A stretch of 64,000 nucleotides of DNA, from contig MIQB01000003.1 of the NCBI GenBank assembly GCA_002890585.1, forward strand, positions 6,727 through 70,726, given 5' to 3'. Origin of the DNA: Tannerella sp. oral taxon 808. Lineage in GTDB: Bacteria > Bacteroidota > Bacteroidia > Bacteroidales > Tannerellaceae. This document shows, piece by piece, positions 6,001 through 15,000 of the stretch; position 1 is the first letter of the stretch; each line of letters starts with the position of its first letter. Position numbers: made by a program.

Positions 6001-9000
6001 GCTTTCTGGCTGAGGAGCGGCGCTCGCGCAACGGCGAGGTGAGCCTCAACTTGGGCTTCCGCCTCACTTACGGCGAGCTTTTTGGCGACGACTACTATTC
6101 GCCCTACGAGTACTTCCGCATCCACGCCTCCTTCGACCTCCTGTCGCATCAGCCCGTCATCTCGCGCGTGAACGCCATCGCCGCACTTTGGGGGCGTGAA
6201 GTCTGGCAGTCAGGTGCCCGCACCCTCTCCGTCGGCGTTTTCCAGCATTTTGATTACTACAACTCGCAGATCCGCTCGCGTACCGGCCGCCTCGTGGCGC
6301 CCTATCGCATTGGTGAGGCGGCAGCCCTTGGTGGCGGGCTCATCTACCTCAGGCGCGCCATCCCCGGCCATCACTTCGACATCCGCCACGAGTTTTACGT
6401 CAACGGCATCGCCCTCGGGGCCAGCCTGAGCGACTATTTCCACGTCGATAACCGCGACTATAATCTGGGCAGCGGCTACAGCATTAAAACATACACTGGA
6501 CTGATATTTCGGAAGTGCTGGGGGTTAGGCCTCCAACTCGAACGATACCACATCTTCACGTGGAAGGGCTACGACCCTGCGGTGGATCTCTCCACCGTCG
6601 ACTATCACCGCCTCAATGTGCAGGGCGACGCGGGCAATGCGCTGTTGGGTGTCTTCACTTCATGCCTCTCTTACCACGCACAGCAGGGATGGAATCTTGG
6701 TTTGGCGCACAATCTCTACTCCCGCCGCACGAACTATCGCTATCACCCAAACGTGGAGTATGCTACGTCCGATGTCCTTCTAACGGCCGGTTACACCTTC
6801 TAACGGCTCTGTGCAAACAGCCCCCTGACGCTCAACAGGCATGCTTTGCGTCACCCACAACGCATGCTTTGCGTCACCCACAACGCATGCTTTGCGTCAC
6901 TCACAACGCATGCTTTGCGTCACTCACAACGCAGGCTTTGTGTCACTCACAACGCCTGCTTTGTGTCACCCACAACCCAGGCTTAGTGTCATCTCTTAAG
7001 CAGGCTTAAGAACACCTCTTAAGCAGGCTTAGCGACACCTCTTAAGCAGGCTTAGTGTCATCTCTTAAGCAGGCTTAGCGACACTTCTTAAGCAGGCTTA
7101 AGAGCACCTCTTAAGTAGGCTTAGTCTATGAGCGCCATTAGGAAGGGTGTCTTCCCCGGTGCGGGGAATGAATTGCTTACATCGAACTCACGTTAGATAA
7201 AACAGCTTTTATAGCGCTCATATTTCCGGATCAGCACCCCCTCTGACGGGGCAGGCAGGCTGAAAACATGAACCAGTGTAAAAGTTCGATATGGGATTTG
7301 TAAAACAGCACCTATTTTTGCCTCCGTTTCGGTGATGCAGCGATCGGCGTCCGCCGCACTGCATGAAAAGGGAATCCGGTGTAAGTCTGGAACAGTGCCC
7401 GCTACTGTAACACCCGAGAAGGAAAGCCCATCCACACCGGCCACTGAGCCTCCACCGGAGGCGTTGGGAAGGCCGCTTTCCAGCGACACATAGTCGCAAG
7501 GGGTGAAGTCAGGAAACCTGCCGAAAACATATTTCCACACATAGCACGCACGCCCCGGGGTCAGGGCGGCGAAGAGATCTAACGATGGCTATATATATAT
7601 ATCGTATGAATAAAAAATACTTAGGAATGATCCTCGCATGGTTGTGCGGGGCAATGACGCTGAGCGCGCAAACAGGCGTAAGCGGACGCGTGGTGAATGC
7701 TGAAACAAACGAGCCGGTGGTGGGCGCGAACATCCGCGTAGACCACAGTCTGACGGGCAGCGTAACGAACACAAAGGGCGAATTTTCGATCGGCAACCTG
7801 CCGGAAGGCACGCATACGCTGAACGTGTCGCACCTGAATTATACAACCGAGGCGCGCGAGGTCAAGACGGGTGAAACGGACGTCGTGATCCGTCTGCGTG
7901 AGAGCGCGATACAGCTCGGGCAGGTGGTGGTGACGGGCACCGGGACACACCACCTGATGAAGAACAGCCCCGTGCCAGTCAGCGTGATTACAGCACGCGA
8001 ACTGAGCAACGCGGGCATCACAACGCTCGACGAGGCACTGCAAAAGCTCACTCCCTCCTTCTCCAACATGACCAACGGCATGGGTACGGTGCTCAGCCTG
8101 AATGGGCTGCCGGAGAAGTACTTCGTCTTCCTCGAAAACGGCCGACGGATGGGGGGCGACGACACGTACGACCGCATCGACGTCTCGCGCATCAAGCGCA
8201 TCGAAATACTCAGCGGCGCTTCCTCGGCGCTCTACGGAACGAACGCCGTGGGCGGGGTGGTGAACATCATCACAAACGATGTGAAGCACGCCGTCAACGT
8301 CTCCTCCGACACGCGCTACACCTCGCACGGGCGCTTCACGCAAGCCATCACGGCTGGCATCAACACAGGGCGCTTCGGCTCCTACACATCCTATCGGCGG
8401 CGACAAGCAGAGAGCTGGCAGCTGAGCCCGTATGAGCGAAACAAGAAGGACAGCCTTGTGGAGACACGCAAGGTGGCCTCGGCCGGTTTCCAATCAGACA
8501 ACGTCAGCCAGCGCTTCACCTACGACGCCACCGACCGCCTCTCCTTCCGGCTTGGCGGCGGATACTACCGTAACATCACACGCCGCCCCCGCGAAGCCTA
8601 CGATTACGACCTGCAACACCGCACCTACTCCTGGGGCGCGGGAGTGAAATACCTCATCACCCCCGACGCCTACATCACGGCCGATTATCAGGCCGACTTC
8701 TTCTCGTCGCGCTACAACTTCCTTAAAGACAGTAAGACGTACAAGATGAAGGCCGACGACGAGCTGGTGCGTAAACGCACGCGCAACCAGCAAGTAAACG
8801 TGAAGGGCATCTTCAATGTGGACAGTTATAACAAGCTGTCGGTCGGGGTGGAATACTTAGCAGACATGCTCAGCAGTCAGTCAGAGCACATCAGCCACAA
8901 GACGGCCTACACAGCGGCGATCTTTGCGCAAGACGAGATCACGATCACGCGCCGCTTCCGCGCCTTGGCCGGGGTACGATACCTCTACCATGAAAATTTC

Positions 9001-12000: not shown

Positions 12001-15000
12001 TGAAGCACGACAATACGAAGATGTCTAACACTAATAATAATGACTATGAAGAGAATTAAGATTTGGATGATGGCGCTTGCAGCAGCCGTCATCGCTGTAG
12101 GCTTCAACGCCTGCAACAAGAATGAAGAAGAGATCTCGAACGTGGAGCGCTACCAGCAATCGGTGGACAACACCGTGAAGTCTGGCAAGAAGCACAACAA
12201 GGTGATCCTGCTCGTCGCCTTCGGATCTACCTGGCAGCGCGCCTTCTTGGCCTTCGACAACACCGTGAAGGAGTATCAGAAAGCCTTCCCCGACTACGAC
12301 GTCTTCCTCTCCTTCTCCTCGGCCATCTGCATCAACCGTGCCGCCGCCGGTGAGCATGCCAAGGACCAAGGCGAAAACAAAGCCGAGGTGCGCCACTACT
12401 ACGCGCCCAACTTCTGGCTCGAAGCTTTCGGCCGCGTGAAGTACAGCGAGATCATCGTGCAGTCGCTCCAAGTCATCCCCGGCGAGGAGTACGGCCGCGT
12501 GATCAACTACATGAAGGACTTCGCCAACAACAGCCAAGGCGACCTTGACGACGCTTACCTCAAGAAGCTGACCCTCCGCCTCGGCCTCCCCCTCATGGCC
12601 GACGCCGACAAGGACGTAAACAACCTGGCCAAGGCGCTCGATAAGAACTACGCCAACTTCGCCAAGCAGGGCATCGTCGCCTTCATGGGCCACGGTAACC
12701 CCGACTCGTACGACATCTACAAGGCCAACATCCGCTACACCCAGCTCGAGCAGGCCTTGCAGAAGATCAACAAGAACTATTACGTCGGCACGGTCGACAT
12801 GAAGGACAACTTCAAGACCTTCGTTCGCGAGCGCATGGAGAAGGCCGGTGTCAAGAAGGGCTCCCGCGTCTATTGCACCCCGCTCATGTCCATCTCTGGC
12901 GACCATGCCCACAACGACATGGCCGGAAACGATTGCGCCAAGACACCCTTCCAACCGAACGACGAGGGCGAGGTGGAAGACACCAGCTGGAAGATGTATT
13001 TCAAGACGATGGGTTACGATTGCTCAGACCAGACGCAGATCATGACCGGACTCCTTGAGCGCGCCGACGTCCGCCAGCTATGGATGAACCACACTAAGAA
13101 TGCGGAGAAGGTGGATTATTATCACTCGAAGAACCCGGAATAAGCCCTTCGACTTCGTCTCGTGGGCATCTGCTGCGTTGCCGGCGACACTCGGTGGTCG
13201 GGTATCTGGGGGGCGTATGCGATACGCCCCTACAAAGCCCCCTCGGATAATCATTGATCATTGACCCGATGTAGGGGCGTATTGCATACGCCCTCAAGAC
13301 GCCCCGCAAGGGGCGGACAATCATCTGATGAACGGGCACGCCTGAGGGAACGATCAATCTGGTGGCCGGGCATGGGCTGGGGTGTATGCGATACGCCTCT
13401 ACAAAGACACCCGGATAATCATTGATCATTGACCCGATGTAGGGGCGTATCGCATACGCCCTCAAGACGCCCCGTAAGGGGCGGACAATCATCTGATGAA
13501 CGGGCACGCCTGAGGAAACGGTCAATCTGGTGGTCGGGTATACGCCCTCAAGACGCCCCGCAAGGGGCGGACAATCATCTGATGAACGGGGAACGATCAA
13601 TCTGGTGGTCGGGCATGGGCTGGGGTGTATGCGGTACGCCCCTACGGAGCGCTTGATAAAGTCATGGATTGATAACCCTTGATCGTTCATCTCTTCCCCC
13701 CGAAGAAGATTAAGCACACACTCTTTTCATAACTATTTCTGACTGCGGGTCGGTGAAAACCGCCCGAATTATTGACTGGCAGCCCGGCACCTGACGTGTC
13801 GGGCTGCTTTTTTGAGCGTGCTGACTGGTGAAGGTTCTCGCTGCGCCATGCAAATCCGCTCGACGGCGTCTGCTATGCGCCATTTCCAAACGTGAGGATG
13901 TACTCCCCGTGCCCAGGGTTTCGCCCTGGGCTATCATCCACCGGGCCTACAGCCCGGACCAGACCACCCAACACGTTGCTGTTGGATGGTCTTGCTGCAT
14001 GCGCGCTAATGCACCCATTAGCTCATGTGGGTGCCAGCCACATGGATTAGGTGGGTCGAGCCACCTAGCTTAGGTGGGTCGGCCCACATAGCTTAGGTGG
14101 GTGTCAGCCACATGGCTTAGTGGGTGTGTATGTCAGCTTGCTACCCTCGACTTTACTTAGTGGCTGAAGCACCGATCCACAGCCTGCTGCCAGTTGCGCT
14201 GATCCCCTCTGCACCCAGGGTTTCTGGGCTATGTCCACCGGGCCTACAGCCCGGATCGATGTACCTCCCCGCGGCCTGTAGGGCCGCCGGACAATAGCCC
14301 GGGGCGAAACCCCGGGTGGAAACGAAATCGCGCGGCGCGTTACCTCAGCGGCGCGAAGCGGCCTGTAGGGCCGCCGGACAATAGCCCGGGGCGAAACCCC
14401 GGGTTCCTGTGGGCGAAACCCCGGGTGGAAACGAAACCGCGCGGCGCGCGAAACCCCGGGCGGCGGACGATGTCCCCCGATCATTGATCGAATGATCACG
14501 TGGGTGTGTACTCTCCGCGCCCGGGGTTTCGCCCTGGGTTGGGAGTGTATGCGGCGAAAACCGGAGGTGCGCGGCGCGCTACCTCAGCGGCGCGAAGTAG
14601 CGGAAGTGGTGGTCGGGCAGGAGCTCGGGGTGGATGATGGCGATCAACTCGGCGAGCAGGCGATCGGGGTGAAGGGGCACCTCCTCGTAGTAGTGCGAGT
14701 CGTGCGTGTTGCAGCCGTAGATGCGGCGGCGGGCGAAGGCGTCGAAGCGGGCGTAGGGGGTGTATTCGGCGCTGAGGGAGGCGTAGGTCATGTCCGGCGT
14801 GGCGTTGTACTGGATGAGCCAGAGGTCGGCGTGCAGGGCACGGTCGATGACGGCCTCGAAGGTGAGGGGGGTGCTGCCCGAGCCGGGCAGGTCGCGGAAG
14901 ACGTAGTCGGCGCCGGCGTCGCGATAGAGGCGGGCCATGTAGCTCTCGCCGTTGGGCACATGCCAGGCAGCGCCATACTTCTTGCCGACGATGAGCGTGG

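What the first reader, a model, noticed from the sequence alone, without database searches (positions are those of the whole stretch)
7295..13143. Cobalamin-riboswitch-controlled operon encoding two different TonB-dependent receptors and a CbiK-fold surface lipoprotein
A riboswitch is followed by two receptors. One has a carboxypeptidase-regulatory-like N-terminal domain and the other is BtuB-like. The third gene is a lipoprotein whose whole length aligns with the cobaltochelatase CbiK, but which carries a lipobox (GFNAC).

As far as I recall, P. gingivalis IhtB is a CbiK-like outer-membrane lipoprotein implicated in heme handling. Here the homolog is under B12-riboswitch control.

That suggests a corrinoid-binding or corrinoid-remodelling role at the cell surface, possibly removal or exchange of the lower ligand or metal. 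That would be a new accessory to Bacteroidales B12 piracy, alongside BtuG and BtuH.
Basis: partly seen in the sequence, partly recalled or inferred. Interest (0 to 1): 0.55.

Follow-up and report, generated by a model that had tools for sequence, protein, structure and literature searches.

The report
B12-riboswitch operon: two receptors, CbiK lipoprotein
A vitamin-B12-sensing RNA switch controls two outer-membrane import channels and an exported, lipid-anchored relative of a cobalt-inserting enzyme. The same kind of operon is already known in the gum pathogen Porphyromonas gingivalis, where it is usually read as a heme system, and the protein's real cargo is still untested.

Summary
A full-length cobalamin riboswitch (7313-7539, 87.6 bits) precedes three tightly packed genes. 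These are a TonB-dependent transporter with a CarboxypepD_reg domain, a second transporter, and a 367-aa lipoprotein with a CbiK fold and both catalytic histidines.

It is not a new kind of system. The lipoprotein's closest solved relative is P. gingivalis FetB/IhtB, and both transporters are IhtA paralogs (40% and 34% identity). The P. gingivalis ihtAB leader carries the same riboswitch, shown experimentally in 2012 to respond to coenzyme B12.

Across 90 related loci, all 82 with enough upstream DNA have a same-strand riboswitch. In one locus it sits directly before a stand-alone lipoprotein gene. In most Prevotella-type loci the operon continues into corrin-ring synthesis genes (cbiHC, cbiET, cbiGF, cbiJD).

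The window also carries a canonical BtuB1-BtuG-BtuF system under a second riboswitch.

Best reading: a B12-repressed uptake module for a corrinoid-related tetrapyrrole, probably a ring precursor or incomplete corrinoid. The lipoprotein would capture the ligand and possibly insert cobalt. Nothing supports lower-ligand remodelling. The ligand is untested.

The parts
7313..7539 (+). Cobalamin riboswitch aptamer (RF00174), leader of the operon
   Evidence: cmscan gave 87.6 bits against a gathering score of 31.5, E = 3e-20, over the full model 1-189. nhmmer re-found it at 7315-7533. No intrinsic terminator lies between the aptamer and the first start codon, so the expression platform is unresolved.
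7585..9780 (+). TBDT1: an IhtA-family TonB-dependent transporter with an N-terminal CarboxypepD_reg domain. The probable true start is the ATG at 7606 (MNKKY...).
   Evidence: Pfam finds CarbopepD_reg_2, Plug and TonB_dep_Rec_b-barrel. It is 34% identical over its full length to P. gingivalis-type IhtA. TBDT1-type orthologs lie upstream in 7 loci, the window included (identities to TBDT1 of 47-88% in the other six). A roughly 36%-identical counterpart lies downstream of the lipoprotein gene in 45 loci.
9777..12059 (+). TBDT2: an IhtA-family TonB-dependent transporter, always the gene directly upstream of the CbiK lipoprotein
   Evidence: Pfam finds Plug and barrel. It is 40% identical to P. 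gingivalis-type IhtA. The adjacent upstream TBDT was closer to TBDT2 than to TBDT1 in all 67 scored loci (median 66% identity). It overlaps TBDT1 by 4 nt and the lipoprotein gene by 14-20 nt.
12040..13143 (+). CbiK-fold lipoprotein (long-form IhtB/FetB relative). The probable true start is 12046, and the lipidated Cys is residue 25.
   Evidence: - Pfam CbiK at 1.9e-39.
- PDB sequence matches: 9B86 FetB 1.7e-25, 2XVX 1.6e-18, 1QGO 1e-9.
- AF2 model pLDDT 93.3. Foldseek target-normalised TM-scores: 0.89 to FetB, 0.87 to D. vulgaris periplasmic CbiK, 0.84 to S. enterica CbiK.
- H218 and H289 align with S. enterica H145 and H207. D253 replaces E175.
- A lipobox followed by an acidic run was found in 49 of 50 clade members.

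Best explanation
This is a B12-repressed outer-membrane acquisition operon of the IhtA/IhtB type.

Proposed mechanism:
1. When cobamide is scarce, the riboswitch lets the operon be expressed.
2. The CbiK-fold lipoprotein is lipidated at Cys25 and exported. An acidic surface-export signal follows the Cys.
3. The lipoprotein captures a corrinoid-related tetrapyrrole. The most likely ligand is a corrin-ring precursor or incomplete corrinoid of the sirohydrochlorin or cobyrinate type. It may be metal-free, in which case the lipoprotein could insert cobalt, or already cobalt-loaded.
4. The lipoprotein hands the ligand to its translationally coupled partner TBDT2. TBDT1 is a paralogous second channel.
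5. The cargo supplements the cell's corrinoid supply, alongside the canonical BtuB1-BtuG-BtuF system for complete cobamides encoded next door.

Shown here or in the literature: the riboswitch, the gene order, the fold, the conserved metal-binding residues, the lipoprotein signal, and the universal linkage to riboswitches and to cbi genes.

Inferred: surface location, pairing with TBDT2, and the identity of the ligand.
For: - Riboswitch and operon architecture.
- A same-strand cobalamin riboswitch is present in 82 of 82 related loci that have enough upstream DNA. Only 5 other riboswitch hits occur in 1.27 Mb.
- In the Puteibacter locus L084 the riboswitch sits directly before a stand-alone CbiK lipoprotein gene, so the lipoprotein itself is a B12-regulated target.
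- Of the 80 best genome loci, 45 carry cbiHC and 35 each carry cbiET and cbiGF; where present they follow the module on the same strand. cbiJD is present in some, and cbiA, cbiP and cbiB lie nearby.
- Other loci couple the module to a BtuFCD-like ABC transporter (L001, L083) or to a CobN-like chelatase plus ExbB-like protein (L020).
- CbiK fold, with both catalytic histidines invariant across 106 sequences.
- P. gingivalis FetB has cobalt and manganese chelatase activity in vitro, with no iron or nickel insertion observed and no dechelatase activity on hemin (PMC13065792).
- Coenzyme B12 lowers ihtA transcript and protein in P. gingivalis (PMC3422912).
- iht transcripts do not respond to heme or iron starvation (PMC12094164).
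- Most of the Bacteroidota analysed in PMC13096392, P. gingivalis included, lack HemA, HemL, HemB and HemC but keep HemD. This fits a need for imported tetrapyrrole precursors.
- The window holds a separate BtuB1 ortholog (E = 4e-164) and a BtuG-like gene under its own riboswitch.
Against: - No ligand-binding data exist for this clade.
- The window itself has no cbi ring-synthesis genes in 64 kb. It has only cobU, cobT, cobS and cobC. In this organism a ring precursor might therefore be useless unless the cbi genes lie elsewhere in the genome.
- The conserved histidines could equally act as axial ligands to a finished corrinoid.
- FetB purifies with porphyrin-type compounds and was first described as a heme-binding protein.
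- The transporters' best NCBIfam match is the heme-receptor subfamily, although below its cut-off.
- HaeR, a hemin-responsive regulator, binds the ihtA promoter (PMC3764172).
- Surface exposure is inferred from a sequence motif and from IhtB literature. It was not tested for this protein.
Confidence: 0.45

Rival explanations
1. BtuG-like capture of complete cobamides. The CbiK lipoprotein would bind finished B12 or cobamides at the surface, possibly remodelling them, and feed IhtA-type transporters acting as alternative BtuBs.
For: - Riboswitch control.
- Hirano et al. named PGN_0704 (ihtA) btuB.
- In Porphyromonas the operon continues into a BtuFCD-like ABC transporter.
- Bacteroides species commonly run several parallel cobamide uptake systems (PMC12751083).
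- Histidine residues could ligate corrin cobalt.
Against: - The window already has a BtuB1-BtuG-BtuF set.
- TBDT1 and TBDT2 have no match to Bacteroides BtuB1-3 structures at E < 1e-10.
- The conserved partners are ring-synthesis genes that act before a complete corrinoid exists.
- The intact chelatase pair of histidines plus an acidic residue is what a metal-insertion site needs.
- The CbiK fold has no known amidohydrolase or nucleotide-loop chemistry. Lower-ligand removal is known from CbiZ-type enzymes (own knowledge).
Confidence: 0.2
2. Cobalt acquisition. The transporters would import cobalt or a cobalt chelate, and the exported CbiK-like protein would act as an extracytoplasmic cobalt binder or metallochaperone, induced when B12 is low.
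For: - B12 riboswitches commonly control cobalt transporters (own knowledge of Rodionov et al. 2003 and 2006; not checked here).
- D. vulgaris periplasmic CbiK was crystallised with cobalt (2XVZ).
- FetB uses Co(II) in vitro.
- Deltaproteobacteria that use cbiK lack known cobalt transporters (PMC545781).
Against: - The tetrapyrrole-binding fold is kept over its whole length.
- FetB purifies with porphyrin-type compounds.
- This reading gives no reason for two IhtA-type channels.
- The window organism shows no ring-synthesis genes that would consume free cobalt.
Confidence: 0.12
3. Heme or iron acquisition, the classical IhtB model. The surface lipoprotein would bind heme and strip its iron as a reverse ferrochelatase, and the transporters would import iron or heme.
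For: - IhtB/FetB was described as a heme-binding outer-membrane lipoprotein and is still drawn that way in 2025-2026 reviews.
- The best NCBIfam match for TBDT2 is the heme-receptor subfamily.
- HaeR binds the ihtA promoter.
Against: - The riboswitch is present in all 82 informative loci.
- iht transcripts do not respond to heme or iron starvation.
- FetB shows no dechelatase activity on hemin and no iron insertion.
- A B. fragilis cbiK mutant showed no heme-iron phenotype, reported as unpublished data in PMC6460266.
- The heme axial ligand His96 of D. vulgaris periplasmic CbiK corresponds to Gly152 here and to Asp in FetB.
- The heme-receptor matches are below the family cut-off.
Confidence: 0.1
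4. Surface production of non-iron metalloporphyrins such as Mn-PPIX or Co-PPIX, serving as pigments or antimicrobials, as reported for FetB in P. gingivalis.
For: Deleting fetB greatly lowers Mn-PPIX, and FetB inserts manganese and cobalt into a porphyrin analogue (PMC13065792).
Against: - It does not explain universal B12-riboswitch control, the paired import transporters, or the linkage to cbi genes.
- The window protein is only 28% identical to FetB.
Confidence: 0.08
5. An ordinary cytoplasmic biosynthetic CbiK whose N-terminus is wrongly read as a lipoprotein signal.
For: - Sources annotate the family as 'sirohydrochlorin cobaltochelatase'.
- In most relatives it sits inside cbi operons.
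Against: - A lipobox Cys followed by an acidic run was found in 49 of 50 clade members.
- It scores 95 bits against a cut-off of 400 for the NCBIfam CbiK equivalog.
- The gene is translationally coupled to an outer-membrane transporter gene.
Confidence: 0.03

Closest known systems
P. gingivalis ihtABCDE operon (IhtA/'BtuB' PGN_0704 and IhtB/FetB PGN_0705, PDB 9B86) with its cbl-1 cobalamin riboswitch
   Same: - Order of cobalamin riboswitch, IhtA-type TonB-dependent transporter, then CbiK-fold lipoprotein.
- The transporters are 34-40% identical to IhtA.
- FetB is the lipoprotein's best PDB match by both sequence and fold.
- Both metal-binding histidines are kept.
   Different: - There are two transporter paralogs instead of one.
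- No BtuFCD-like ihtCDE follows.
- The lipoprotein is only 28% identical to FetB and about 75 residues longer. It has clade-specific insertions, an invariant C-terminal DYYHSKNPE motif, and Asp in place of the Glu metal ligand.
- TBDT2 lacks the CarboxypepD_reg domain that IhtA has.
Prevotella-type corrin operons: riboswitch, TBDT, CbiK lipoprotein, TBDT, cbiHC, cbiET, cbiGF (seen here in genome collections)
   Same: - Same lipoprotein clade (59-90% identity).
- Same TBDT2 partner with the same 14-nt gene overlap.
- A second TBDT1-like transporter.
- The same riboswitch.
   Different: In the window the second transporter lies upstream rather than downstream. No cbi ring-synthesis genes follow. 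Instead there is a repeat-rich spacer.
D. vulgaris periplasmic CbiK (CbiK-P, PDB 2XVX/2XVZ)
   Same: - An exported CbiK-fold protein.
- It lies in a B12-element-regulated locus together with transport genes (PMC545781).
- It has the same metal-binding residues.
   Different: - It is a soluble periplasmic protein with an ordinary signal peptide.
- It binds heme through His96, which is Gly152 in the window protein.
- It has no TonB-dependent partner.
Bacteroides BtuB-BtuG (plus BtuH, BtuJ, BtuK) cobamide uptake loci
   Same: Riboswitch-controlled pairing of an outer-membrane transporter with a surface lipoprotein in Bacteroidales. A true copy lies in this window at 14579-19155 (-).
   Different: The folds are unrelated. 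BtuG is a beta-propeller and BtuH carries DUF4465, against a class II chelatase fold here. The transporters are not BtuB1-3 relatives.
B. fragilis btuS1-type 'hmu-like' operons with a cobalamin riboswitch and two consecutive HmuR-like transporters
   Same: A riboswitch followed by two consecutive heme-receptor-like transporters (PMC10100974). By locus-tag number, a cbiK gene (BF638R_2502) lies close to btuS1 (BF638R_2505) (PMC6460266). Locus L020 links the CbiK lipoprotein to a CobN-like protein.
   Different: The window has no CobN-like BtuS and no ExbB-like genes. I did not verify the gene order in B. fragilis.

Membership tests
Cobalamin riboswitch (Rfam RF00174) | Scores above the curated gathering threshold over the whole covariance model | tested here: met
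   87.6 bits against 31.5, model positions 1-189 of 189, E = 3e-20
Cobalamin riboswitch (Rfam RF00174) | Lies in the 5' leader, on the same strand, of B12-related genes, and this position is conserved in relatives | tested here: met
   The aptamer ends 45-66 nt before the first start codon. All 82 informative related loci keep it.
Cobalamin riboswitch (Rfam RF00174) | Ligand-dependent repression of the downstream genes | not testable with these tools
   Shown only for the P. gingivalis counterpart (PMC3422912). No terminator was found here.
CbiK class II chelatase family (Pfam PF06180) | Passes the Pfam gathering score and has the two-domain CbiK fold | tested here: met
   136 bits against 26.2. 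Target-normalised TM-score 0.84-0.89 to 1QGO, 2XVZ and 9B86.
CbiK class II chelatase family (Pfam PF06180) | Metal-binding residues corresponding to S. enterica His145, Glu175 and His207 | tested here: inconclusive
   H218 and H289 are kept and are invariant in 106 sequences. The Glu position is Asp253, which is invariant within the window clade.
Biosynthetic sirohydrochlorin cobaltochelatase CbiK (NCBIfam equivalog NF047852) | Reaches the equivalog cut-off | tested here: not met
   95.3 bits against a cut-off of 400
Biosynthetic sirohydrochlorin cobaltochelatase CbiK (NCBIfam equivalog NF047852) | Cytoplasmic enzyme with no export signal | tested here: not met
   Signal peptide with lipobox Cys25 followed by an acidic run. 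The same was found in 49 of 50 clade members.
IhtB/FetB-type exported CbiK-like lipoprotein | Lipoprotein signal plus CbiK fold, encoded directly after an IhtA-type transporter | tested here: met
   The gene overlaps TBDT2.
IhtB/FetB-type exported CbiK-like lipoprotein | Heme or porphyrin binding and Co/Mn chelatase activity | not testable with these tools
   Known only for FetB (PMC13065792)
Bacteroides BtuB (BtuB-BtuG type cobamide transporter), considered for TBDT1 and TBDT2 | Sequence relationship to BtuB1-3, or reaching the TonB-B12 equivalog cut-off | tested here: not met
   No PDB match to 8BLW, 8P97/8P98 or 8BMX at E < 1e-10. TonB-B12 scores of 111-118 bits against a cut-off of 600. 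The window's other transporter does match, at E = 4e-164.
Bacteroides BtuB (BtuB-BtuG type cobamide transporter), considered for TBDT1 and TBDT2 | An adjacent btuG (beta-propeller lipoprotein) gene | tested here: not met
   The adjacent lipoprotein has a CbiK fold. The BtuG-like gene sits in the other operon at 15779-16867.

The most novel reading that the evidence does not exclude
Exported CbiK-fold lipoproteins and their IhtA-type transporters form a 'precursor piracy' arm of the B12 economy in Bacteroidales. They would capture early corrin-ring intermediates of the sirohydrochlorin type released by other microbes and insert cobalt outside the cytoplasm. The product would feed a truncated cbi pathway. 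This would resolve the long-standing puzzle of organisms that hold the pathway from precorrin-2 onward but cannot make precorrin-2. It would also mean that IhtB/FetB has been misfiled as a heme protein.
Probability: 0.3. Interest if true: 0.75.

Novelty: new member of a known kind. Interest (0 to 1): 0.4.

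Why it matters
The window operon itself is an ordinary member of a widespread family. At least 536 species genomes encode a relative.

The comparison does expose a mismatch in the literature. IhtB/FetB is still treated as a heme or iron protein in the 2024-2026 papers I read. Of these, the FEMS review (PMC12094164) and the FetB paper (PMC13065792) do not mention a riboswitch at all. 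Yet every informative locus of the family is under a cobalamin riboswitch, and most loci sit inside corrin-ring synthesis operons.

If the lipoprotein captures, or inserts cobalt into, corrin precursors outside the cell, three things follow:
- Bacteroidales with truncated B12 pathways would have an explained way to make cobamides.
- A new class of shared metabolite would be added to gut and oral B12 cross-feeding.
- The interpretation of a P. gingivalis virulence-associated surface protein would change.

Tried and rejected
- Looking up the exact window protein in the assembly index found no record.
- The first Porphyromonas IhtB-ortholog locus (L001) is cut 105 nt upstream of ihtA. Its lack of a riboswitch hit is therefore uninformative. 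I replaced it with loci L082 and L083 from the metagenome scan.
- NCBIfam could not assign either transporter to a substrate class. All matches are far below the cut-offs.
- Scans found no intrinsic terminator and no significantly stable fold between the aptamer and the start codon. The switching mechanism is left open.
- tblastn of the cbi families against the whole window found no cbiHC, cbiET, cbiGF, cbiJD, cbiA or cbiP, and no pseudogene remnants downstream of the lipoprotein gene.
- Rodionov et al. 2003 could not be read, so I could not check whether it already described the CbiK-transporter linkage.
- Ideas rejected:
  - a mis-called signal peptide
  - heme binding in the manner of D. 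vulgaris periplasmic CbiK, whose His96 ligand is absent here
  - TBDT2 as a Bacteroides-type BtuB

Full report
**Observation**

The features are present at the stated coordinates. Rfam's cobalamin model RF00174 matches window 7313-7539 (+) over its full length, at 87.6 bits against a gathering score of 31.5.

Three same-strand ORFs follow with overlapping boundaries: 7585-9780, 9777-12059 and 12040-13143. Comparison with relatives suggests true starts at 7606 for the first and 12046 for the third.

Pfam assignments:
- Gene 1: CarbopepD_reg_2, Plug and TonB barrel
- Gene 2: Plug and barrel
- Gene 3: CbiK at 1.9e-39, over residues 54-355

The third protein starts MTMKRIKIWMMALAAAVIAVGFNAC, followed by NKNEEE. 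That is a lipobox with an acidic run after the Cys.

No intrinsic terminator lies between the aptamer and the first start codon. How the switch acts is therefore open.

**The lipoprotein**

Its best match among solved structures, by sequence, is P. gingivalis FetB (IhtB, PDB 9B86) at 1.7e-25. Next come the periplasmic CbiK of D. vulgaris (2XVX) and S. enterica CbiK (1QGO).

An AlphaFold model built on 106 sequences has a mean pLDDT of 93.3. Foldseek returns the same three proteins, with target-normalised TM-scores of 0.89, 0.87 and 0.84.

Metal-binding and heme-ligand positions:
- His218 and His289 align with S. enterica His145 and His207. Both are invariant across the 106 sequences.
- The Glu175 position is Asp253, which is invariant within the window's clade.
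- The heme ligand His96 of D. vulgaris periplasmic CbiK aligns with Gly152.

The protein is only 28% identical to FetB and about 75 residues longer. It has clade-specific insertions and an invariant C-terminal DYYHSKNPE motif.

It fails the NCBIfam equivalog cut-off for biosynthetic CbiK, at 95 bits against 400.

A lipobox Cys followed by an acidic run (typically SDDDD) was found in 49 of 50 clade members. From my own knowledge of work on Capnocytophaga and Bacteroides, that is the Bacteroidota signal for surface export of lipoproteins. IhtB itself is described as exposed to the external environment (PMC12094164).

**The transporters**

Both are IhtA paralogs. The P. gingivalis-type IhtA is 40% identical to TBDT2 and 34% identical to TBDT1, the latter including the CarboxypepD_reg domain.

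Neither reaches any NCBIfam cut-off. Heme-receptor and B12-receptor models score similarly low.

Neither matches the Bacteroides BtuB1-3 structures at E < 1e-10. 'BtuB-like' is therefore too strong a label for TBDT2.

**Surroundings**

The window is a B12 island.
- A second riboswitch (18958-19155, -) drives a clear BtuB1 ortholog (16898-18904, E = 4e-164 to 8BLW_A). A BtuG-like gene (15779-16867) and a BtuF-like gene (14579-15721) follow, converging on the finding.
- cobU, cobT, cobS and a cobC-like gene lie at 24151-27072.
- No corrin-ring synthesis gene is present anywhere in the 64 kb.
- The 1.4 kb after the lipoprotein gene is repeat-rich and has no recognisable gene.

**Relatives**

The family is large. 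A protein search found 3771 proteins. At least 536 species genomes encode a relative, mostly Prevotella-type Bacteroidales.

Rfam found a same-strand riboswitch upstream in 8 of 8 loci tested. An nhmmer profile extended this to all loci. In total, 82 of 90 loci have the riboswitch. The other 8 all end too close to the gene to tell; L007, for example, begins inside a TBDT1-type gene.

The invariant core is riboswitch, TBDT2-type transporter, then lipoprotein, with a 14-nt gene overlap. The adjacent upstream transporter was TBDT2-type in all 67 scored loci.

A second, TBDT1-like transporter lies downstream in 45 loci and upstream, as in the window, in 7.

Among the 80 best genome loci, cbiHC is present in 45 and cbiET and cbiGF in 35 each, following the module on the same strand. 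cbiJD is present in some, and cbiA, cbiP, cobD and cbiB lie nearby.

Other loci continue differently:
- into a BtuFCD-like ABC transporter
- into a CobN-like chelatase with an ExbB-like protein (L020)

Near-identical metagenome contigs reproduce the window's arrangement.

**The IhtB question**

They are.
- Two loci encoding FetB at 98-99% identity carry RF00174 (75-76 bits). The aptamer starts about 437 nt before the ihtA start codon and ends about 200 nt before it.
- Three further IhtB-clade loci carry it as well. In Puteibacter it directly precedes a stand-alone lipoprotein gene.
- This is published. Hirano et al. 2012 mapped the cbl-1 riboswitch upstream of PGN_0704. They showed co-transcription and showed that coenzyme B12 lowers both transcript and protein (PMC3422912). 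Scott et al. 2013 repeat the point.

The heme-centred literature has not integrated this. Neither the 2025 FEMS review (PMC12094164) nor the 2026 FetB paper (PMC13065792) mentions a riboswitch. Those papers also report that:
- iht transcripts do not respond to heme or iron starvation
- FetB inserts cobalt and manganese, with no iron or nickel insertion observed, and does not dechelate hemin

A B. fragilis cbiK mutant had no heme-iron phenotype, given as unpublished data in PMC6460266. B. fragilis 'hmu-like' operons with two consecutive transporters and a cobalamin riboswitch have also been noted (PMC10100974).

**Mechanism**

Shown:
- B12-type control
- a tight three-gene operon
- an exported CbiK-fold lipoprotein with an intact metal site
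- constant pairing with an IhtA-type transporter
- repeated linkage to corrin-ring enzymes

Inferred: under cobamide scarcity, the lipoprotein captures a corrinoid-related tetrapyrrole at the cell surface and passes it to TBDT2, with TBDT1 as a second channel.

I favour a ring precursor or incomplete corrinoid as the ligand, possibly loaded with cobalt by the lipoprotein. The reasons are:
- the neighbours act on such molecules
- the active site is that of a cobalt inserter
- a separate canonical system for complete cobamides sits next door
- most of the Bacteroidota analysed in PMC13096392 lack the early tetrapyrrole enzymes but keep HemD

From memory, Roper et al. 2000 proposed that the truncated P. 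gingivalis pathway salvages corrin intermediates.

The main weakness is that this window's organism shows no ring-synthesis genes, and no binding data exist. Rivals are complete-cobamide capture, cobalt uptake, the classical heme model, surface metalloporphyrin production, and a mis-called signal peptide.

**Verdict**

This is a new member, with a two-transporter gene order and a long-form lipoprotein, of a known kind of operon whose riboswitch control is already published. Its cargo is the open and testable question.

Noticed in passing
window 6839-7125, 13210-13538 and 14019-14126: Two adjoining arrays of different 23-bp tandem repeats (about 6.5 copies each) lie between the DUF3943 gene and the riboswitch. 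A 168-bp unit repeated twice lies just after the lipoprotein gene, and another 23-bp array lies further on. The 13144-14578 spacer has no recognisable gene. It occupies the position where relatives carry a second transporter and cbi genes.
   Followed up: partly
window 14579-19155 (-): A second cobalamin riboswitch (18958-19155, 101.7 bits) drives a canonical Bacteroides-type uptake operon. Its genes are a BtuB1 ortholog (E = 4e-164 to 8BLW_A), a BtuG-like lipoprotein and a BtuF-like binding protein. The operon converges on the finding.
   Followed up: yes
window 24151-27072 (+): A cobU-cobT-cobS cluster plus a cobC-like phosphatase, the genes for nucleotide-loop assembly and cobinamide salvage. 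The organism can therefore finish incomplete corrinoids, although no ring-synthesis genes are in the window.
   Followed up: partly
window 19490-21820 (+): A siderophore-type TonB-dependent receptor is transcribed divergently from the second riboswitch. No riboswitch of its own was detected.
   Followed up: no
window 52207-52393 (+): Bacteroidales-1 RNA (a suggested 6S-like RNA) at 128.7 bits, which supports a Bacteroidales origin. The window's G+C content is 58%.
   Followed up: no
L084 6653-7867: In Puteibacter caeruleilacunae a cobalamin riboswitch sits directly before a stand-alone CbiK-like lipoprotein gene, with no transporter gene between them.
   Followed up: partly
L013, L038 and L048: Some species carry two CbiK-lipoprotein genes within one 17-kb locus. 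In L013 there is also a second riboswitch.
   Followed up: no
L020 9254-14378: In one Prevotella MAG the lipoprotein gene is followed by a 1296-aa CobN/Mg-chelatase-like protein and an ExbB-like protein. This resembles hmuS-hmuU and the B. fragilis btuS operons, and links two different chelatase folds in one riboswitch-controlled operon.
   Followed up: partly
window 12040-13143 (protein residues 97, 279 and 359-367): The window clade has invariant Cys97 and Cys279 and an invariant C-terminal DYYHSKNPE motif, all absent from FetB. Their function is unknown.
   Followed up: no
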